From a virus (Duplodnaviria; Heunggongvirae; Uroviricota; Caudoviricetes): a stretch of 47,226 nt of DNA. The DNA lies in IMG/VR virus record IMGVR_UViG_2737471818_000007. One strand, given 5' to 3'. Below the pieces are notes generated by a model that saw nothing but the letters and a program-made list of their open reading frames with translations, was not told the origin of the DNA and did no database searches. This document shows positions 27,057 to 36,857 of this stretch, one piece after another. A program made the translations under genes and the position numbers. Numbering within the stretch: position 1 is the first letter of the stretch; every line of letters begins with the position of its first letter.

Positions 27057-28106
27057 TTAACCCGCCTGCTCCATTATTTCACCAACGGTCTGTTCAAAAC
27101 GTTCTTTTTCCAGTTCCACGCCAGTCGCCCTGCGTCCCAGTGACAGTGCCGCTTTTATTGTCGCCCCCGACCCCATAAAAAAATCGGCAACCAAATCACC
27201 GGGGCGACTGCTGGCCTCAATTATCTGCCGCAACATATCGGCTGGTTTTTCACAGGGATGTTTGCCCGGATAATACTGCACGGGCTTGTGCGTCCAGACA
27301 TCCGTATACGGAACGGCAACTGATACGGAAAAATAACGCCGCAGGGATTTGTACTCCTTCAGCAGGCTGGCATATTGCCGGTTCAGTTCACTGTATGTGC
27401 TGACCAGCTGGTGGTGTGGCTTTTCCAGTTCCCCGCGTTGATGTTTTTCTGCTGCAACACGCGCAAACAACGCCTGTAATTTCAGATAATCACCTTCGTT
27501 CGGCAACTGCCACTGACTGATACCAAACCAGTGCGAAGCCATGTTTTTCTTTCCGGTGGCTTCCGCTATCTGTTTTGACGTTATTCCCAGTGATTCACGC
27601 GCATCACGAAAGTAAGAAATCAGCGGGGCCATGACGTGCTGTTTTAGCTCGCTCCCCTTTGCCGCATAGCCGTCATTTTTGGGCCGGTATGGCCCCTGAT
27701 AATGTTCTGCAAACAGAATGCGTTCTGTTGCCGGGAAATACGCCCGCAGGCTTTCCTTGTTGCATCCGTTCCAGCGTCCGGACGGCTTCGCCCAGATAAT
27801 GTGGTTCAGCACATTAAAGCGCTCACGCATCATGATTTCGATATCAGATGCCAGGCGATGACCACAGAACAGGTAGAGACTTCCGGCAGGTTTCAGTACC
27901 CGCCAGAACTGCGCCAGACACTGTTCCAGCCATTTCAGGTAATCATCGTCGCCCTTCCACTGGTTATCCCAGCCCTCGGGCTTCACTTTAAAGTATGGCG
28001 GGTCTGTGACTATCAGATCGACTGAGTTTTCCGGTAAGGTCTGGATAAATTCCAGGCAATCAGCGTTGATTAACTCACAACTGGATATTTTTACAGTATT
28101 AACCAT
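27057..28106 (-). CDS. DNA methyltransferase, beta-class N6-adenine/N4-cytosine type
   Basis: 349-aa ORF with ATG at 28106; motif IV DPPY near the N-terminus (LIVTDPPYF) and motif I FxGxG near the C-terminus (DFFMGSGAT). Confidence 0.8.
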   Translation of the reverse strand: MVNTVKISSCELINADCLEFIQTLPENSVDLIVTDPPYFKVKPEGWDNQWKGDDDYLKWLEQCLAQFWRVLKPAGSLYLFCGHRLASDIEIMMRERFNVLNHIIWAKPSGRWNGCNKESLRAYFPATERILFAEHYQGPYRPKNDGYAAKGSELKQHVMAPLISYFRDARESLGITSKQIAEATGKKNMASHWFGISQWQLPNEGDYLKLQALFARVAAEKHQRGELEKPHHQLVSTYSELNRQYASLLKEYKSLRRYFSVSVAVPYTDVWTHKPVQYYPGKHPCEKPADMLRQIIEASSRPGDLVADFFMGSGATIKAALSLGRRATGVELEKERFEQTVGEIMEQAG

Positions 28107-28713: not shown

Positions 28714-30117
28714 ATGGCTCGTAAAGATTTCACTCAGCAAATAGACATTCCAATTCAAAATATCCTCCTCGATACTGAAAATGCCAGAATCCGCGCAGGT
28801 AGAGATCAAAACAACTGCATTTCAAGGATATTGCGTAAAGAAAACCAGATGCTTGTATTGATGGAGGATATTGCAGAAAACGGACTTACAACCATGCCCA
28901 TATTGGTTATGCCTCACTCAGAAGGTAAATGGGTAGTTAAAGATGGTAATAGACGAATAACAGCTTTAAAACTATTAAATAACCCAGATAGTTGCCCGGA
29001 ACCACATTTAATTCCGAAAATAAAAAAAATAAAAGAAAAATATCATGACAACATACCTACTACTGTTGACTGTTTATCAAGTGACAATTTTGAAGCAGTA
29101 TTTAAAGAGATAATAGCAAGGCATTCTGGAGCACGTAATGGTGCTGGTCAATATGACTGGTTTGCATATATGCGAACAATTTATCTATTAAATAATGGAC
29201 ATCCAACTGATTATAAAAGAGCTGGTCAATATATGTGTTGGGCTGAACAAGAAGGCATTGATGTAGATGATGATTTCCCAATCACTAGTGTAGCCAGATT
29301 CTTTACTAGAGATAATCTTCTATTGTTAGGATTTGAAGTGGAAAATGATAAATTGAAGCCAATACTCTCAAAAGAAAAAATAATAAAAATGGCCTCAAAA
29401 ATTAATAGCGACTTTTCTTCAAAAATAGTTGATGTTAACACCGTCTTTAATCCTAGCGATGCAAAGAAATATCTTTGCTCGGTAAGAAAATATGCAGGAA
29501 TAATAGATGATTTTGCTTACAATAGTGATGACACAGAACAAGAAAATAATAAAAAAGAAGAAACAAATAAATGTTCCTCTCCATCTGAAGTGGATAACAA
29601 TAATGCGCAATCAGATAGTAAGAGTGACGCACCTGTACTACTAAAAAAACACGCAGGTAGAGGAGGTACACCTAAAAAAATACCAGCAGAGCGAAATAAA
29701 ATTTTTGGTAGAGGAAAGCCTGGAATTACTATTCCTGAAAATGAGACTAAAATAAGAACTATAATCTCAGAACTTAGGCAATTAGATGTAAAAAAAACAA
29801 CTCTTGCAACTGCATTTCTTCTTCGGGCACTGCTGGAGTTAAGTGATAAAGAATATAGAACAATTAACAAGTTGCAAGATAAAAAAAGCTTAGCTAAAAA
29901 TATTGCTAATAGCGCAGATCATATGTTGAAAAATAATCTAATCACTGACTCAGAACACCATATAATATCAGCTTATACTCGCGGCGAGCAAGGAACTGTG
30001 CACATTGAAACTTTACAAAAATTAATTCACAGAGAGACACATCACCCAGATTATATCTCAATTAATGTTTTTTGGGACAATATAGGTTGTTTTGTTCGAG
30101 CTTGTTGGAAAGATTAA
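28714..30117 (+). CDS. ParB/Srx-fold (DGxRR motif) N-terminal domain protein, unknown function; candidate nuclease or defence protein
   Basis: 467-aa ORF with ATG at 28714; N-terminus has ParB-like motifs (ILLDTENARIR; GLTTMPILVMP; VVKDGNRRITALKLL); Lys-rich low-complexity linker; His-rich C-terminal domain; very AT-rich. Confidence 0.65.
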   Translation: MARKDFTQQIDIPIQNILLDTENARIRAGRDQNNCISRILRKENQMLVLMEDIAENGLTTMPILVMPHSEGKWVVKDGNRRITALKLLNNPDSCPEPHLIPKIKKIKEKYHDNIPTTVDCLSSDNFEAVFKEIIARHSGARNGAGQYDWFAYMRTIYLLNNGHPTDYKRAGQYMCWAEQEGIDVDDDFPITSVARFFTRDNLLLLGFEVENDKLKPILSKEKIIKMASKINSDFSSKIVDVNTVFNPSDAKKYLCSVRKYAGIIDDFAYNSDDTEQENNKKEETNKCSSPSEVDNNNAQSDSKSDAPVLLKKHAGRGGTPKKIPAERNKIFGRGKPGITIPENETKIRTIISELRQLDVKKTTLATAFLLRALLELSDKEYRTINKLQDKKSLAKNIANSADHMLKNNLITDSEHHIISAYTRGEQGTVHIETLQKLIHRETHHPDYISINVFWDNIGCFVRACWKD

Positions 30118-30163: not shown

Positions 30164-31018
30164 TCATTTCTTCTTCATAGAGGGAGTGCTATGAATATTT
30201 AAATTTTTATATACCATAAGTTCTGTAACTCTTGGCCTTGTCAAATGAGTTGAGTAATGTAAAGAAAACTCCACAATTTTTTCGTCTTTATATAACTTCC
30301 TGATTTCTTCACAATTATCATATGTAACAATTATCGGAGTGGAAATATCCTTAACCTTTTCAGAAATTAATTTATGATCATGAGGTTTATAATGATTTCT
30401 ATAAAGCTGGCTACCTTTTTCATAATATGGAGGATCAAGATAAATTAGAGATTTTTTTGGTAGTGTATTTTTTATACTACCAATCAACTCACAGGCATCC
30501 AAATTATAAAGATCAATAAATTTTTTCATTCCACCTATTTTTTTTACTCTTTCACATAGTTTCTTCTTATTATACCTAGCATCAATCTTATATTTACCAC
30601 TCTGTTCTTTTCCTCCTATAACCCCACCTGATAAGATTCCAGAACGATTGGTTCGATTGAGAAAAAACGTAGCAAAACCAATAGATAAAATATCATGTTT
30701 AGTATAATTGTTTATTACATCTTTTTGCTTATACCAATTATCCATTGTTACTTCTGTTTCATTTATCAATGAAATAAATTTATCATTCTCATTTAACACT
30801 GACCACCAAAATGAGTAAACAACAGGATCCAAATCATTAATAATGACATGATCTACATATCCATGCATTAGCAAATACAATGCAGCTCCTGCGCCGCCAG
30901 CATATGGCTCCACATAATACCCACCACTAATTCCGTTATACCTCAGCAGTTCTGATATCCAAGGCCCCATCCTCCCTTTTCCACCGGGATAACGTAATGG
31001 GGTAAAAAATGTAGTCAT
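30164..31018 (-). CDS. DNA adenine methyltransferase, D12 (Dam-like) class
   Basis: Track ORF 30164..31054 trimmed to the ATG at 31018 (MTTFFTPLRYPGGKGRM..); motifs YPGGK, VEPYAGGAG, FLNRTNRSG, YLDPPYY parallel E. coli Dam; AT-rich; convergent with the ParB-like gene. Confidence 0.8.
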   Translation of the reverse strand: MTTFFTPLRYPGGKGRMGPWISELLRYNGISGGYYVEPYAGGAGAALYLLMHGYVDHVIINDLDPVVYSFWWSVLNENDKFISLINETEVTMDNWYKQKDVINNYTKHDILSIGFATFFLNRTNRSGILSGGVIGGKEQSGKYKIDARYNKKKLCERVKKIGGMKKFIDLYNLDACELIGSIKNTLPKKSLIYLDPPYYEKGSQLYRNHYKPHDHKLISEKVKDISTPIIVTYDNCEEIRKLYKDEKIVEFSLHYSTHLTRPRVTELMVYKNLNIHSTPSMKKK

Positions 31019-31105
31019 GCTGAACCTCATACAAAACCAGGAAATTAAATGCATTTTACCCTAAATCACATCAATTCTAAATAACTAAATTAACAGTATT
31101 AAAAT

Positions 31106-33222: not shown

Positions 33223-33495
33223 TTACTCATCTTCAAAAGCAGAAAAACCAGCCTTAAACTCTGCCTCTTTCAGAACCTGCAATGATGTGACAAATTCATC
33301 TTCACGTAAAATAAAACCGTCTGTCACAAGTCCGTCCACAAAATAAATTAACGCAGCTCCACTCTTCTTTTGTTGAGATTGTAAACATTCAATACGGCAG
33401 TGACTGGCGATAACGCCATTCTCAACGCGCACAGTATAGAGGCCATCTTCACTAAAAATTTCACGCAATTCTTCGATTTTCATCAGCAGAATCAT
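33223..33495 (-). CDS. hypothetical protein
   Basis: 90-aa ORF with ATG at 33495; no family recognised. Confidence 0.4.
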   Translation of the reverse strand: MILLMKIEELREIFSEDGLYTVRVENGVIASHCRIECLQSQQKKSGAALIYFVDGLVTDGFILREDEFVTSLQVLKEAEFKAGFSAFEDE

Positions 33496-33644
33496 TCCGG
33501 ATAAATAACTCTCCCCTGTTTGGGGTCCATCCCTCTTCTCCCTGCGCGCTACTTAAGTATTTTTGATTCTATTTACCCCTAACGGCCCCTCAAGAACCAC
33601 AACCAACGGAGTACACAAAAAGCTAATCAACTACGCCGCACAAT

Positions 33645-33672
33645 AAAAAACCCGCCGAAGCGGGTTTTCATT
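33645..33672 (-). terminator. rho-independent terminator downstream of the Doc-type toxin gene
   Basis: AAAAAACCCGCCGAAGCGGGTTTTC: 7-bp stem with A-run and T-run flanks; an identical hairpin recurs at 34489. Confidence 0.65.
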
Positions 33673-33682
33673 AGAAGCATCT

Positions 33683-34168
33683 TTAGTTTTGCTGTTCTAT
33701 TTTAAGCTTGATAGTTTCATACAAAACAATAGTTGCGCCTGTTTTACATAATTCCCGACTGTCATACGCACGAGACCAATAACACAACCAATTTTCAAGC
33801 TCTTCTCGTGTATAAATTTTACAGGCCAGCCCCTCAGCCATCTCTACAACTTCATCGCCTGGCGCGGTTAATTCGTATCCATTTAACAATAAAAAAACCG
33901 CACCAGCCATCATTGCTGTGCGCTTGTTTGCATTGGCAAATGGATGATTCTGAATCAGACTTTCAATCAATACCGATGCCAGTACAAACATGTCGTTGGT
34001 TTGCTCATACCATCGAACCATACTGGGACGAGACTGAGAAGAACTTAAATTATCAACACTCAGCACACCAACAGGTTCATCTGGTGTTTGAAGCTCAATT
34101 AAAAGGCGATTGATTTCAGTAAGATCATCAACCGAGAGGTAGTGCACTCCTTCAACAATCTCAGCCAT
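33683..34168 (-). CDS. Fic/Doc-family toxin (Doc-like)
   Basis: Track ORF begins at TTG 34177, ATG at 34168; contains HPFANANKRTA matching the Doc motif HxFx(D/N)(A/G)NKR. Confidence 0.75.
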   Translation of the reverse strand: MAEIVEGVHYLSVDDLTEINRLLIELQTPDEPVGVLSVDNLSSSQSRPSMVRWYEQTNDMFVLASVLIESLIQNHPFANANKRTAMMAGAVFLLLNGYELTAPGDEVVEMAEGLACKIYTREELENWLCYWSRAYDSRELCKTGATIVLYETIKLKIEQQN

Positions 34169-34186
34169 AGAGCACAATACCCATCA

Positions 34187-34366
34187 TTACACTTTTGAAA
34201 GATCTTCCATTGCCTTCTCGTAACGAGAAAAACCGAAATCGAAAGCATTTTTCACCTGCTCACGATGAGTGCAATTTTCATCGATAGCCGGGCGCGGAGC
34301 TGCCACAACGCTTTTATCGCGAGGGGGAATAGTCAATCGCGGGTGTTTTTTTAGTGCGTAGCTCAT
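34187..34366 (-). CDS. putative antitoxin of the Doc-like toxin (59 aa, below the ORF-track cutoff)
   Basis: ORF MSYALKKHPRLTIPPRDKSVVAAPRPAIDENCTHREQVKNAFDFGFSRYEKAMEDLSKV ends 18 nt upstream of the toxin ATG; operon position of an antitoxin. Confidence 0.5.
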   Translation of the reverse strand: MSYALKKHPRLTIPPRDKSVVAAPRPAIDENCTHREQVKNAFDFGFSRYEKAMEDLSKV

Positions 34367-34484
34367 TGGTGTACCCTTACTTCTCCGTCCTGTTCTTTAA
34401 CAAAAATTAAGTCAATACAAAATTAGTCAGGCTAATGTTGTTAGCATAGCCTAATACCAATCGTATTCACAACCACAGTACGTG

Positions 34485-34510
34485 AAAAAACCCGCCGAAG
34501 CGGGTTAAGT
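34485..34510 (-). terminator. rho-independent terminator downstream of hok
   Basis: Second copy of AAAAAACCCGCCGAAGCGGGTT; on the minus strand the hairpin is followed by TTTTTT. Confidence 0.65.
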
Positions 34511-34576
34511 GCGGGTGCGTTGAGGATGCCTGACACATCAGAGGTGGCGAGGAATTTCTCCCTCGCCAGGTCACTC

Positions 34577-34732
34577 TTACTCCTCAGATTCGTAAGCTGT
34601 GAAGACAGCGACCTCCGTCTGGCCGGTTCGGATTCGTACCTCGCAGAGGTCTTTCCTCGTTACCAGTGCCGTCACTATGACGGTTAAACAGATGACGATC
34701 AGGACGATTAACATCGCCTTTTGCTGCTTCAT
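34577..34732 (-). CDS. hok: Hok/Gef-family type I toxin
   Basis: 51-aa ORF MKQQKAMLIVLIVICLTVIVTALVTRKDLCEVRIRTGQTEVAVFTAYESEE, classic Hok; below the ORF-track size cutoff. Confidence 0.85.
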   Translation of the reverse strand: MKQQKAMLIVLIVICLTVIVTALVTRKDLCEVRIRTGQTEVAVFTAYESEE

Positions 34733-34790
34733 AGCCTGCTTCTCCTTGACCTTTCGGTCCGTAAGAGGCTAACCTACATGTGTCTAGCAT
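34584..34790 (-). CDS. mok: Mok-like overlapping reading frame (translational coupling for hok)
   Basis: 68-aa ORF in another frame, starting upstream of hok and ending inside it, as in the R1 hok/mok/sok locus. Confidence 0.55.
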   Translation of the reverse strand: MLDTCRLASYGPKGQGEAGYEAAKGDVNRPDRHLFNRHSDGTGNEERPLRGTNPNRPDGGRCLHSLRI

Positions 34791-34986
34791 GAAATTGGCC
34801 TCAGATTAATGTTAAGCGTCTTGCAGGACGCGTAATGTTAACTAGGGCTTTTCTCTATCTGCCTTTGGTGTTCATGCCTGAGGCAGATAGCCTCAAGCAC
34901 CCGCAGCAATTCTACTTAAGTTAGATAAGCTTTTCTATGGTATTCTCTCAGCGTCCCGTAAATACAGTCTCGGCTCATCATTTTTA

Positions 34987-35250
34987 TCACAGGTGCGAGG
35001 AAAATATATAGCGCCCTCCATCAAGCATAACGAAATACATTTTCCATTCATCGCCATTCCTCAATTTAATACGAAGACTTTCCCCGCAAGTGTATTTATT
35101 AAACAACTGTTCCGATGTGCTAGTAAGAGGTATTTTTACCGTTATTACAACTACTGCCCCACCATTTAACTCTCGAAGTTCAGCATCCGCATCCACAAAA
35201 GATGAATAAATGTTATGATCTGGGTAATCAACAATTAACTGCATATTCAC
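34987..35250 (-). CDS. hypothetical protein
   Basis: 87-aa ORF; no family recognised. Confidence 0.4.
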   Translation of the reverse strand: MNMQLIVDYPDHNIYSSFVDADAELRELNGGAVVVITVKIPLTSTSEQLFNKYTCGESLRIKLRNGDEWKMYFVMLDGGRYIFSSHL

Positions 35251-36383: not shown

Positions 36384-36857
36384 CTATTTCATAAAAATAA
36401 TCCAGTGGGTTTTATCGTTTTTTCCTGTTCGTTGACCGATAACAGGTTTTCTGTCGGTCAGCACCAATATCTGGCGAACAGGTATTTGCGTTTCATTCCA
36501 TTTAAAAATCAGAACGCCGGATGGACGCAACACACGAAAGGCTGCTTTAAATCCCTGCCGCAAATCATCACGCCAGGTATCTTTATTCAGCCGTCCATAT
36601 TTCTTTCCCATCCAGGCGTTATCACCAACACGCTCAAGATGCGGAGGGTCGAATATAACCATCGAAAAAGATGCGTCTGCAAATGGTAGTGCACGAAAAT
36701 CAGCTATCAGATCAGGACTGATAATCAGGCATCGTCCATCACACAATGTGTGCTCTTCCTTTCTGATATCGCTAAATATCGCCCGGTCGTCATTCTTATC
36801 GAACCAGAACATACGGCTGCCACAGCACATATCAAGAATGGTTACCGGTGTACTCAC
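36384..36857 (-). CDS. small methyltransferase-like protein (phage Dam-like, DPPH motif)
   Basis: 157-aa ORF with motif-I-like ILDMCCGS and motif-IV-like VIFDPPH; nin-region position. Confidence 0.55.
   Translation of the reverse strand: MSTPVTILDMCCGSRMFWFDKNDDRAIFSDIRKEEHTLCDGRCLIISPDLIADFRALPFADASFSMVIFDPPHLERVGDNAWMGKKYGRLNKDTWRDDLRQGFKAAFRVLRPSGVLIFKWNETQIPVRQILVLTDRKPVIGQRTGKNDKTHWIIFMK

What the first reader, a model, noticed from the sequence alone, without database searches (positions are those of the whole stretch)
33683..34366. Doc/Fic-type toxin with an unannotated 59-aa upstream partner ORF
The 161-aa protein carries HPFANANKRTA, matching the Doc motif. A 59-aa ORF (below the ORF-track cutoff) ends 18 nt upstream and is the likely antitoxin, though it does not resemble Phd as I recall it. 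A phage-borne Doc-type toxin-antitoxin pair in the nin region could stabilise the prophage or act in abortive infection.
Basis: partly seen in the sequence, partly recalled or inferred. Interest (0 to 1): 0.5.

Follow-up and report, generated by a model that had tools for sequence, protein, structure and literature searches.

The report
Prophage Doc toxin with uncharacterised small partner
A lambdoid prophage carries a two-gene cassette made of a Doc-family kinase toxin and, just upstream, a 59-residue protein from an unstudied family that always travels with it and is very probably its antitoxin; this is an ordinary kind of system with a partner nobody has characterised.

Summary
On the minus strand a 59-aa ORF (34366..34187) ends 18 nt before a 161-aa ORF (34168..33683) that carries HPFANANKR. 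The large protein is a clear Doc-family member (TIGR01550, 120.7 bits against a cut-off of 38.65).

The small ORF is a real gene. Synonymous sites are saturated while pN is 0.12-0.23, and pN is 0-0.04 in the last 23 codons. It matches no Pfam, NCBIfam, PADLOC or PDB entry and shows no similarity to Phd. It belongs to a narrow family (PHROG 2208, "unknown function"). A Doc gene lies directly downstream in 92 of 92 related loci scanned, and in every further locus examined except one borderline hit.

AlphaFold gives a structure-less N-terminal half and one 24-residue C-terminal helix, with no DNA-binding fold. My best reading is a type II toxin-antitoxin pair with a neutralisation-only antitoxin. 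This is inferred, not shown.

The pair is an 840-bp cassette inserted at the hokD terminator and flanked by an exact 22-nt hairpin repeat. At least 1,673 E. coli genomes have the empty site.

RefSeq already annotates both genes (Doc toxin and "hypothetical protein"). Toxicity, binding and biological role are untested. Interest is modest.

The parts
34187..34366 (-). 59-aa small ORF, the putative antitoxin (PHROG 2208 family; RefSeq 'hypothetical protein')
   Evidence: The ORF is listed. It matches phrog_2208 at 5.4e-42 over its full length. It has no Pfam, NCBIfam, PADLOC or PDB match. Purifying selection is strong: pN 0.12-0.23 against saturated pS of about 0.75. A Doc gene lies directly downstream in 92/92 loci.
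34196..34267 (-). Codons 34-57 of the small ORF: predicted single alpha-helix and the most conserved segment (QVxNAFxxxFxRYEKAxxxLSKV). Proposed Doc-binding element.
   Evidence: AF2 with a 39-sequence alignment predicts helix 34-57, with pLDDT 79-88 in this part. The last 23 codons have pN 0-0.036 with pS 0.6-1.0. Invariant columns are listed. Binding to Doc is inferred by analogy with the Phd 51-73 peptide in 3DD7 and EFPhd 52-79.
34268..34366 (-). Codons 1-33 of the small ORF: basic, Pro-rich, with no predicted secondary structure. Carries the conserved motif R-L-x-I-P-x-R-D-K and conserved N-terminus M-x-x-A-x-x-K.
   Evidence: AF2 predicts no helix or strand in residues 1-33. The motif is conserved across the family (I13, P14 and R16 at >=90%). 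Net charge is +3 with 5 prolines. Function is unknown.
33683..34168 (-). 161-aa Doc-family (Fic fold) toxin gene
   Evidence: Pfam PF02661 at 1.6e-11 (45.3 bits, cut-off 24). TIGR01550 DOC_P1 at 3.8e-35 (120.7 bits, cut-off 38.65). phrog_577 'Doc-like toxin' at 1.1e-48. The closest solved structure is E. faecalis Doc 9VZC_A at 6.4e-14; P1 Doc 3K33 scores 1.8e-4. RefSeq product name: 'type II toxin-antitoxin system death-on-curing family toxin'.
33920..33946 (-). Codons 75-83, HPFANANKR: the Doc-type catalytic motif HxFx(D/N)(A/G)NKR
   Evidence: Read directly from the sequence. H75, F77, N79, N81, K82 and R83 are invariant in 31 subfamily members.
33645..33672 (-). Intrinsic-terminator hairpin plus U-tract 17 nt after the Doc stop. 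This is the distal copy of the 22-nt direct repeat (33645-33666).
   Evidence: Exact 22-nt repeat. RNAfold gives -21.1 kcal/mol for the 61-nt stretch that contains the hairpin, which is followed by UUUUUUAUU on the minus strand. The same hairpin class follows doc in 72/92 related loci, including genera without hok.
34485..34506 (-). Proximal copy of the 22-nt repeat, which is the hokD terminator hairpin. It marks the upstream boundary of the 840-bp cassette.
   Evidence: One search shows the repeat. There are only 2 copies in the window against 0.01 expected. Alignment with the empty site of E. coli GB089 shows a single copy at the junction.
33667..34506 (-). The 840-bp cassette (5' UTR/promoter region, small ORF, doc, terminator), present or absent as one unit relative to the common hokD-to-downstream-gene arrangement
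   Evidence: A synthetic empty-site query (33300-33666 joined to 34507-34850) matches as one contiguous piece in >=1,673 of 5,426 E. coli genomes. The junction was checked by alignment. The filled site occurs in 125 genomes when the cassette itself is the query, and in 155 with a slightly longer query that includes flanking sequence.
34443..34472 (-). Candidate weak sigma-70 promoter: TTGTGA (34472-34467), 18 nt, TATGCT (34448-34443)
   Evidence: Only 8 of 12 matches in my own scan, below the threshold of the tool scan, which found nothing here. Both hexamers are kept (TTGTAA / TATCCT) in a diverged E. coli variant whose spacer differs. Tentative.
34374..34378 (-). Shine-Dalgarno-like AAGGG, 7 nt before the ATG of the small ORF
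   Evidence: Read from the sequence.

Best explanation
This is a mobile, bicistronic type II toxin-antitoxin cassette carried as a moron in the nin-equivalent region of a lambdoid prophage.

**Toxin.** The downstream gene encodes a Doc-family Fic-fold kinase. By homology it should phosphorylate EF-Tu and arrest translation.

**Antitoxin.** The upstream 59-aa protein is its cognate antitoxin and belongs to a family unrelated in sequence to Phd/YefM. It appears to be a neutralisation-only antitoxin. The N-terminal half is disordered, and one C-terminal helix of about 24 residues would dock into Doc, as the C-terminal helices of P1 Phd and E. faecalis Phd do. There is no folded DNA-binding domain, so classical antitoxin-mediated autoregulation is unlikely.

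**Transcription unit.** The two genes are co-transcribed from a weak promoter just downstream of the hokD terminator and end at their own hairpin terminator.

**Shown here:** Doc membership and the intact motif; that the small ORF is a real, selected gene; strict pairing with Doc; the predicted helix with no other fold; the cassette boundaries.

**Inferred:** toxicity, EF-Tu as target, direct binding through the helix, absence of autoregulation, and any role in prophage stabilisation or phage defence.
For: **Doc identity.**
- TIGR01550 scores 120.7 bits against a cut-off of 38.65. Pfam Fic and PHROG 577 also match.
- HPFANANKR is invariant in 31 subfamily members.
- The closest solved homologue is the E. 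faecalis Doc of a validated Phd-Doc pair (PMC13034048).

**The small ORF is a gene.**
- Across four diverged loci pS is about 0.75 (saturated) and pN is 0.12-0.23.
- In the last 23 codons pN is 0-0.036.

**Partnership with Doc.**
- Doc lies immediately downstream on the same strand, 7-18 nt away, in 92/92 loci: 80 IMG/VR contigs and 12 genomes of different species.
- The same holds in 8 hand-checked loci in unrelated contexts: lambdoid nin region, myovirus tail/baseplate modules, next to dinI-umuDC, a Salmonella TA island, and Providencia topA-sodC.
- It also holds for a distant family member at E 1.5e-5 and for the isolated Pseudomonas phages Sirocco and LPPA56.

**Architecture.**
- AF2 (mean pLDDT 78.5) gives no secondary structure in residues 1-33 and a single helix at 34-57.
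- Solved antitoxin fragments bound to Doc are of similar size: Phd 51-73 in 3DD7 and the bent helix 52-79 of EFPhd.
- A Phd-C element alone, fused to SUMO, neutralises a Doc toxin, and single-domain neutralisation-only antitoxins exist (PMC10440598; PaaA2, PMC8630535).

**Cassette.**
- A 22-nt exact repeat flanks it, and the empty site occurs in >=1,673 E. coli genomes.
- Upstream DNA is not conserved between contexts. I found no palindrome shared by the eight loci, and the window's inverted repeat is not kept in a diverged E. coli variant. This fits an antitoxin that has no operator.
Against: - There is no direct evidence of toxicity, binding or neutralisation.
- The partner resembles no known antitoxin, so its role rests on association and architecture.
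- Amphipathicity of the predicted helix (muH 0.32) is like that of Phd 51-73 (0.30) but not significant against shuffles (757/5000).
- The Doc model was poor (pLDDT 64) and its fold search was uninformative.
- No convincing promoter was found: 8/12 at best.
- The conserved N-terminal motif RLxIPxRDK has no assigned role and could be a DNA- or protein-contacting element that I cannot see.
- Some Doc homologues are only weakly toxic in E. coli (D. dadantii Doc, PMC8198452).
- One borderline family hit (P0172, E 7e-4) has no Fic neighbour.
Confidence: 0.7

Rival explanations
1. This is a canonical autoregulated type II module. The small protein is the antitoxin, and its conserved basic N-terminal segment (RLxIPxRDK) forms, on dimerisation or with Doc as co-repressor, a DNA-binding element that represses the operon, functionally like Phd.
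For: - The N-terminal motif is conserved across the whole family.
- It has fairly high AF2 confidence (block 11-20 pLDDT 84) despite having no secondary structure.
- The segment is basic, with net charge +3.
- Some loci carry palindromes upstream, for example TGCACTAA-T-TTAGTGCA in the Salmonella locus L006 and AGGCTA-N12-TAGCCT in the window.
Against: - Thirty-three Pro-rich residues are too few for any known antitoxin DNA-binding fold (RHH, AbrB, HTH, Phd/YefM), and none is predicted.
- Upstream sequences share no blastn-detectable homology between contexts.
- The window's inverted repeat is not kept in a diverged E. coli variant.
- No palindrome is shared across the 8 loci.
Confidence: 0.12
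2. This is not a toxin-antitoxin pair in the addiction or abortive-infection sense. The Doc-like enzyme is a phage-encoded host- or phage-protein modifier used during infection or lysogeny (a moron effector). The small protein would then be an adaptor, chaperone, substrate or specificity factor rather than an inhibitor.
For: - PHROGs files the Doc family under 'moron, auxiliary metabolic gene and host takeover'.
- The pair is found almost only in prophage or phage contexts.
- Fic/Doc proteins carry out varied chemistry, NMPylation or phosphorylation (PMC10440598).
- This Doc subfamily has a conserved C-terminal extension (W127, L128, W131, D136, L140 and C141 invariant) that P1 Doc (126 aa) lacks.
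Against: - The Doc-specific NKR version of the motif, associated with EF-Tu kinase toxins, is invariant.
- The order 'small gene first, 3-18 nt gap, toxin second' is the classic type II layout.
- One chromosomal, non-prophage context exists: Providencia, between topA and sodC.
- The closest characterised homologues are all toxins of TA pairs.
Confidence: 0.1
3. The module is a decayed or inactive passenger in this cryptic prophage. The genes are intact but not expressed, or are harmless, and have no current function.
For: - No strong promoter is present, and a terminator lies directly upstream.
- The cassette is dispensable: the empty site is more than 10 times commoner than the filled site in E. 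coli.
Against: - Both genes are under strong purifying selection across genera.
- Catalytic residues are invariant.
- The pair is kept intact in 92/92 loci.
Confidence: 0.05

Closest known systems
Phd-Doc of bacteriophage P1 (PDB 3K33, 3DD7, 3KH2)
   Same: - The toxin is a Doc-family Fic-fold protein with the HxFx(D/N)(A/G)NKR motif.
- The antitoxin gene comes first, with a short gap.
- It is carried on a prophage.
- Phd neutralises through a C-terminal segment of about 23 residues (Phd 51-73 in 3DD7). That is the same size as the partner's conserved predicted helix.
   Different: - The partner shows no sequence or profile similarity to Phd (hhalign probability 1.4%; no PF02604 hit).
- The partner is 59 aa against 73 aa and lacks the folded Phd/YefM N-terminal DNA-binding dimerisation domain.
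- This Doc is 161 aa against 126 aa, with a conserved extension to about residue 141 and then a variable tail.
- It matches P1 Doc only at E 1.8e-4.
Enterococcus faecalis chromosomal Phd-Doc (PDB 9VZC; PMC13034048)
   Same: - It contains the closest solved Doc homologue (6.4e-14 over residues 6-117).
- Its antitoxin binds through a bent C-terminal helix, residues 52-79.
- EFPhd also has no detectable sequence similarity to P1 Phd. This shows that Doc antitoxins diverge beyond recognition while keeping a helical binding mode.
   Different: - EFPhd has an N-terminal beta-sheet DNA-binding domain and recognises a palindromic operator. No such domain is predicted here.
- The small ORF and its family profile do not hit the 9VZC antitoxin chain even at E<=10.
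PaaA2-ParE2 (with PaaR2) of cryptic lambdoid prophage CP-933P, E. coli O157:H7 (PMC8630535)
   Same: - The antitoxin is small and has no DNA-binding domain.
- It is embedded in a lambdoid prophage of the same YdaS/YdaT type as this window.
- It is proposed to stabilise the prophage region.
   Different: - The toxin family is ParE, not Doc.
- It is a three-gene system whose separate regulator, PaaR2, controls transcription. The 840-bp cassette here has no room for a third gene.
- It sits in the immunity region, not the nin region.
PanA_Phd-C:Doc (Corynebacterium doosanense) and the 'linear neutralisation element' concept (PMC10440598)
   Same: A short helical Phd-C element is sufficient to neutralise a Doc toxin when stabilised. 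Antitoxins consisting of the neutralisation element alone are recognised. The 59-aa protein would be a natural stand-alone case for Doc.
   Different: In that system the element is fused to a globular Panacea domain. Here there is no accessory domain, and no sequence relationship to that element was examined or shown.
Class I Fic antitoxins VbhA / YhfG (small single-domain inhibitors carrying the [S/T]xxxE[G/N] inhibitory helix; recalled from Engel et al. 2012, not read here)
   Same: It is a small protein (about 55-62 aa) encoded just upstream of a Fic-fold enzyme. It inhibits that enzyme with a helix and has no DNA-binding domain.
   Different: - The inhibitory motif is absent from the window protein. 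It occurs in only 2 of 39 family members, at non-homologous positions.
- The enzyme here carries the Doc (kinase) motif, not the AMPylase motif HxFx(D/E)GNGRxxR.

Membership tests
Doc subfamily of Fic/DOC proteins (PF02661; TIGR01550) | Scores above the curated thresholds of the family HMMs | tested here: met
   PF02661 scores 45.3 bits (cut-off 24). TIGR01550 scores 120.7 bits (cut-off 38.65) over profile positions 2-122 of 122.
Doc subfamily of Fic/DOC proteins (PF02661; TIGR01550) | Doc-type active-site motif HxFx(D/N)(A/G)NKR (Lys in place of the second Gly of the AMPylase motif) | tested here: met
   H75-P-F-A-N-A-N-K-R83 read from the sequence. H75, F77, N79, N81, K82 and R83 are invariant in 31 homologues. 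The motif definition is as quoted in PMC13034048.
Doc subfamily of Fic/DOC proteins (PF02661; TIGR01550) | All-alpha Fic fold | tested here: inconclusive
   The AF2 model is all-helical but of low confidence (mean pLDDT 64). The top Foldseek hit is Doc 3DD7_A, but at E 0.73 and TM 0.25-0.32.
Doc subfamily of Fic/DOC proteins (PF02661; TIGR01550) | Phosphorylates EF-Tu and arrests translation; toxic when expressed alone | not testable with these tools
   Requires an expression and kinase assay.
Type II toxin-antitoxin module | Two adjacent co-oriented genes, small antitoxin first, with a short gap or overlap | tested here: met
   The gap is 18 nt in the window and 3-18 nt in homologous loci.
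Type II toxin-antitoxin module | The two genes co-occur as a unit across genomes and contexts | tested here: met
   92/92 loci. Diverse contexts. The cassette is present or absent as one 840-bp unit.
Type II toxin-antitoxin module | Antitoxin protein binds and neutralises the toxin | not testable with these tools
Co-expression and pull-down are needed.
Type II toxin-antitoxin module | Antitoxin carries a DNA-binding domain and autoregulates the operon (canonical, not universal) | tested here: not met
   No DNA-binding family hit. AF2 shows only one helix and no fold in residues 1-33. No upstream operator is conserved. Exceptions such as PaaA2 are accepted type II antitoxins, so this does not exclude membership.
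Phd/YefM antitoxin family (PF02604) | Sequence or profile similarity to Phd/YefM | tested here: not met
   No Pfam hit for the protein or for any of 39 family members. hhalign against P1 Phd gives probability 1.4%. A profile search of the PDB finds no Phd chain. An exhaustive profile search of 1.84 billion representatives returns only small proteins of the same family.
Phd/YefM antitoxin family (PF02604) | Folded N-terminal dimerisation / DNA-binding domain | tested here: not met
   AF2 predicts no secondary structure in residues 1-33, and the protein is only 59 aa.
Phd/YefM antitoxin family (PF02604) | C-terminal helix that docks on Doc | tested here: inconclusive
   A 24-residue C-terminal helix is predicted and is extremely conserved. 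Docking could not be modelled.
Class I Fic antitoxins (VbhA/YhfG type) | Inhibitory helix motif [S/T]xxxE[G/N] | tested here: not met
   The motif is absent from the window protein. It occurs in 2 of 39 family members, at non-homologous positions. The motif definition is recalled from memory.
Phage moron (independently transcribed insert in a prophage) | Discrete insertion relative to related phages, with its own terminator | tested here: met
   The empty site is contiguous in >=1,673 E. coli genomes, and the junction was checked. A hairpin plus U-tract follows doc and is kept in 72/92 loci.
Phage moron (independently transcribed insert in a prophage) | Own promoter | tested here: inconclusive
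   The best candidate, TTGTGA-18-TATGCT, matches only 8/12. The tool scan found none. The hexamers are retained in a diverged variant.

The most novel reading that the evidence does not exclude
The 59-aa protein founds an uncharacterised family of stand-alone, DNA-binding-free antitoxins dedicated to a ~160-aa Doc subfamily. The family is spread through temperate phages of Enterobacterales and Pseudomonas as a minimal promoter-to-terminator moron that lands at terminator hairpins. Its second conserved element (N-terminal MxxAxxK...RLxIPxRDK) would be a functional switch, such as a protease degron or a sensor of an invading phage. That would make the cassette a prophage-encoded abortive-infection device that shuts down EF-Tu, rather than a simple addiction module.
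Probability: 0.3. Interest if true: 0.5.

Novelty: new variant of a known kind. Interest (0 to 1): 0.33.

Why it matters
Doc toxins are a textbook type II family. Their known partners (Phd/YefM-type, and the composite mazE-doc pairing reported in a paper title seen but not read) carry DNA-binding domains that couple neutralisation to autoregulation. Here the partner is apparently just a disordered tail plus one helix.

If confirmed, this would be a natural minimal Doc antitoxin. It would be useful for three things: defining the smallest Doc-neutralising element, asking how such modules are regulated without an operator-binding antitoxin, and testing whether prophage-borne Doc cassettes act in phage defence.

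The cassette occurs in about 2-3% of complete E. coli genomes, including O104:H4 C227-11 and APEC O1, where the partner is still labelled 'hypothetical protein'. A practical outcome would be a better annotation for PHROG 2208 and WP_000119355-like proteins.

The clean filled-site/empty-site pair at the hokD terminator is also a tidy example of moron gain or loss at a shared hairpin.

None of this changes what is understood about TA biology, so the interest is moderate to low.

Tried and rejected
2. **Doc structure.** AF2 on a 31-sequence alignment of 63-94% identical homologues gave mean pLDDT 64. Foldseek against the PDB ranked Doc 3DD7 first, but at E 0.73, so it was uninformative. Sequence HMMs carry the membership claim instead.
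3. **Link to known antitoxins.** Pfam, NCBIfam, PADLOC, the PDB by sequence and by profile, hhalign against P1 Phd, and an exhaustive profile search of 1.84 billion representatives all found nothing outside the family itself.
4. **Amphipathicity.** The predicted helix is comparable to Phd 51-73 but not significant against shuffles, so I do not use it as evidence.
5. **Class I Fic antitoxin motif.** Absent.
6. **D. dadantii phd-doc (PMC8198452).** I considered it as a prior characterisation. It is a canonical Phd-domain antitoxin overlapping its toxin by 3 nt, so it is a different module.
7. **Literature.** Searches for the RefSeq accessions and for 'death-on-curing' with hokD found nothing.
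8. **Promoter and terminator scan.** It found no promoter in the 118-nt upstream region and, oddly, no terminators.
9. **Rfam.** Only the neighbouring sok RNA is above threshold. The sub-threshold rsmX, istR and isrK hits sit on the terminator hairpins and were dismissed.
10. **Megablast against deposited phages.** It found nothing. tblastn found the pair in two Pseudomonas phages and a partial small-ORF match in one Salmonella phage, which I did not examine further.
11. **Pseudosubstrate idea.** I compared KSVVA in the partner with RTVGA around EF-Tu Thr382 (recalled from memory). I dropped it because the Ser position is not conserved in the family.
Full report
**1. Observation**

Two co-oriented ORFs lie on the minus strand of the window. 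A 59-aa ORF runs 34366..34187 and a 161-aa ORF runs 34168..33683. They are separated by 18 nt and share a frame: the small ORF ends TAA TGA, and 12 nt later comes the ATG. An upstream in-frame TTG at 34177 is an alternative start. Homologues begin M-A/P/I-E-x-V-E-G and RefSeq uses the ATG. Residues 75-83 of the larger protein read HPFANANKR (33946..33920).

**2. The toxin**

The 161-aa protein scores:
- 45.3 bits on Pfam Fic/DOC (cut-off 24);
- 120.7 bits on NCBIfam TIGR01550 'death-on-curing family toxin' (cut-off 38.65), over the whole profile;
- 1e-48 on PHROG 577 'Doc-like toxin'.

[quoted passage not shown] P1 Doc matches at 1.8e-4. In an alignment of 31 subfamily members, H75, F77, N79, N81, K82 and R83 are invariant. 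This is the Doc (kinase) form of the Fic motif, HxFx(D/N)(A/G)NKR (definition quoted in PMC13034048).

The subfamily is about 35 residues longer than P1 Doc. It has a conserved extension (W127, L128, W131, D136, L140 and C141 invariant) followed by a variable tail.

An AF2 model was all-helical but poor (pLDDT 64), and its fold search was uninformative. Fold membership therefore rests on the HMMs. EF-Tu phosphorylation and toxicity are inferred from family membership, not shown.

**3. The small ORF is a real gene of an unstudied family**

It has no hit in Pfam, NCBIfam, PADLOC or the PDB. It matches PHROG 2208 ('unknown function') end to end at 5e-42.

Across four loci whose synonymous sites are saturated (pS about 0.75), pN is 0.12-0.23 overall. 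In the last 23 codons pN is 0-0.036. That is strong protein-level constraint, concentrated at the C-terminus.

An exhaustive profile search of 1.84 billion representative proteins found only 36 hits, almost all 38-95 aa, and no bridge to Phd/YefM or any other antitoxin family. A 39-sequence alignment shows two conserved blocks:
- an N-terminal R-L-x-I-P-x-R-D-K;
- a C-terminal Q-V-x-N-A-F-x-x-x-F-x-R-Y-E-K-A-x-x-x-L-S-K-V.

None of the 39 members hits Pfam meaningfully. The family profile finds no PDB antitoxin. hhalign against P1 Phd, whose sequence I verified against 3HRY/3K33, gives 1.4% probability.

**4. Partnership with Doc**

A Doc gene lay directly downstream of almost every homologue of the small ORF that I examined:
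- in an Ewingella myovirus tail/baseplate module, beside dinI-umuDC, and in a Salmonella island with ParDE and VapBC;
- upstream of Doc homologues from Salmonella, Providencia (chromosomal, between topA and sodC), Pantoea and Xenorhabdus;
- for a remote family member at E 1.5e-5;
- in the isolated temperate Pseudomonas phages Sirocco and LPPA56, next to the integrase.

In a systematic scan, 80 IMG/VR viral contigs and 12 genomes of different species (Serratia, Citrobacter, Kluyvera, Hafnia, Morganella, Rosenbergiella, Providencia, Izhakiella, Yersinia pestis) all had Doc immediately downstream, 7-18 nt away. That is 92 of 92.

The only exception is the weakest family hit (P0172, E 7e-4). It sits among small phage genes with no Fic neighbour and may be a false positive or an orphan.

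**5. Predicted architecture and likely mechanism**

AF2 with the 39-sequence alignment (mean pLDDT 78.5) predicts no secondary structure for residues 1-33 and one helix at 34-57. Residues 1-33 are basic, with five prolines. No DNA-binding fold is present.

In both solved Doc complexes the antitoxin contributes a C-terminal helical segment of similar length: Phd 51-73 in 3DD7 and a bent helix 52-79 in EFPhd. Those two Phds share no detectable sequence similarity with each other. Lack of similarity here is therefore not an argument against the same binding mode.

A Phd-C element alone, stabilised by SUMO, neutralises a Doc toxin, and neutralisation-only antitoxins are recognised (PMC10440598). 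PaaA2 of a lambdoid prophage is a studied case in another toxin family (PMC8630535).

I therefore read the 59-aa protein as a stand-alone neutralising antitoxin whose C-terminal helix docks on Doc. This step is inferred. I could not model the complex, and helix amphipathicity is not statistically distinctive.

The conserved N-terminal block has no assigned role. A protease-recognition tag or a second contact with Doc are possibilities, and a DNA-contacting arm is the main alternative.

**6. Regulation**

The 118 nt between the hokD terminator and the small ORF contain a good Shine-Dalgarno sequence (AAGGG, 34378-34374) but only a weak promoter candidate. That candidate is TTGTGA-18-TATGCT at 34472-34443, with 8/12 matches. 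Its hexamers persist in a diverged E. coli variant whose spacer has changed.

Upstream DNA is not homologous between contexts. Against the most similar locus (L006), blastn homology with the window starts 2 nt before the small ORF's ATG; against the other loci it starts inside the small ORF. No palindrome is shared across loci, and the window's AGGCTA-N12-TAGCCT repeat is lost in the diverged variant. This fits an antitoxin without an operator, but it is weak negative evidence.

**7. The cassette and its setting**

The window is the reverse complement of IMG/VR contig UViG_2737471870_000001. It is a Rac/CP-933-type lambdoid prophage. Its features, in window order, are:
- integrase;
- RecE-like exonuclease;
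- CI-like repressor;
- YdaT;
- DnaC-like loader;
- DUF1627;
- DUF977;
- a DNA methyltransferase;
- hok/sok;
- the Doc pair;
- two small unknowns;
- a DUF968/HNH protein;
- RusA;
- Q.

The pair is bounded by an exact 22-nt direct repeat, AAAAAACCCGCCGAAGCGGGTT, at 33645-33666 and 34485-34506. These are the only two copies in the window, against 0.01 expected. On the minus strand each copy is a hairpin followed by a U-tract. RNAfold gives -21.1 and -16.2 kcal/mol for the 61-nt stretches that contain them.

A synthetic 'empty site' joining the two flanks through one hairpin copy matches contiguously in at least 1,673 of 5,426 complete E. coli genomes. Alignment with strain GB089 confirms one hairpin at the junction. 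The filled site occurs in 125 genomes when the cassette itself is the query, and in 155 with a slightly longer query that includes flank. In the five E. coli genomes whose annotation I examined it lies just downstream of hokD. These include APEC O1 and O104:H4 C227-11.

The same hairpin class follows doc in 72/92 related loci, including Xenorhabdus and Pantoea loci that lack hok. It therefore travels with the cassette. The identical hokD terminator probably served as the recombination point for gain, or for precise loss, of the 840-bp unit. The direction cannot be decided from these data.

**8. Comparison with what is known, and novelty**

The toxin is an ordinary, already annotated Doc-family member. 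The pairing of Doc with different antitoxin superfamilies is known (Leplae et al. 2011, PMC3141249).

What is not described, as far as my searches reach, is this particular partner family. It is labelled 'hypothetical protein' in RefSeq and 'unknown function' in PHROGs. It fails the tests for Phd/YefM and for class I Fic antitoxins.

I rate it a new variant of a known kind: a Doc module whose antitoxin is apparently reduced to the neutralising element. Biological role (addiction or stabilisation of the prophage region, or abortive infection) is untested. Its recurrent placement at moron or defence hot spots of temperate phages is suggestive only.

**9. Verdict**

| Item | Verdict |
|---|---|
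| Observation | Confirmed |
| Interpretation | Supported as far as computation can go |
| Best explanation | Doc kinase toxin plus a stand-alone helical antitoxin, carried as an 840-bp moron |
| Confidence | About 0.7 |
| Interest | Modest (0.33) |

Noticed in passing
window 33645-33666 and 34485-34506; empty-site example L016 (E. coli GB089) 1760-1900: An exact 22-nt terminator-hairpin direct repeat flanks the Doc cassette. At least 1,673 E. coli genomes have the hokD-to-downstream junction with a single hairpin and no cassette. This is a clean filled-site/empty-site pair and suggests moron gain or loss by recombination at a shared terminator.
   Followed up: yes
window 34577-34732 (-) and 34730-34902 (-): A hok/sok type I toxin-antitoxin locus lies directly upstream of the Doc cassette. 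The Hok peptide is 51 aa (PHROG 251) and Rfam sok RF01794 scores 108 bits. In other strains the same spot also holds RelE/HTH, ParDE or VapBC pairs (L022, L006), so this part of the nin region acts as a TA island.
   Followed up: partly
L017 2501-2650 (metagenomic phage-like contig): The weakest member of the small-protein family (P0172, 49 aa, E 7e-4) sits in a run of small phage genes with no Fic/Doc neighbour. It could be a false positive, or an orphan copy of the antitoxin that a phage might use against Doc-based defence.
   Followed up: partly
window 36384-36857 (-), 30164-31054 (-), 27057-28106 (-): Three separate DNA methyltransferase genes lie in one 47-kb prophage: PHROG 954, PHROG 56 and Pfam N6_N4_Mtase. 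That is unusually many and possibly reflects anti-restriction functions.
   Followed up: no
window 28714-30117 (+): A 467-aa ORF lies on the strand opposite to the surrounding late and early genes and has no Pfam hit. It could be another moron or accessory gene between the methyltransferases.
   Followed up: no
window 33300-35000: The consensus terminator scan reported zero terminator-like sites. RNAfold nevertheless gives stable folds (-21.1 and -16.2 kcal/mol for the 61-nt stretches) containing two GC-rich hairpins followed by U-tracts on the minus strand. The tool's negative result should not be trusted here.
   Followed up: yes
L115 (Pseudomonas phage Sirocco) 1450-2181; L116 (phage LPPA56) 1501-2175: The same small-ORF-plus-Doc pair, with a 3-nt gap, occurs next to the integrase in two isolated temperate Pseudomonas phages. 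In Sirocco the Doc gene is annotated as a death-on-curing toxin and its partner as 'hypothetical protein'; in LPPA56 both genes are 'hypothetical protein'. The family therefore extends beyond Enterobacterales.
   Followed up: partly
window 33683-33780 (-), Doc residues ~130-161: This Doc subfamily has a conserved extension beyond the TIGR01550 core (WLxxWSRxYDSRxLC) followed by a hypervariable tail that differs even between close relatives. Its function is unknown. It may contact the partner's N-terminal half.
   Followed up: no
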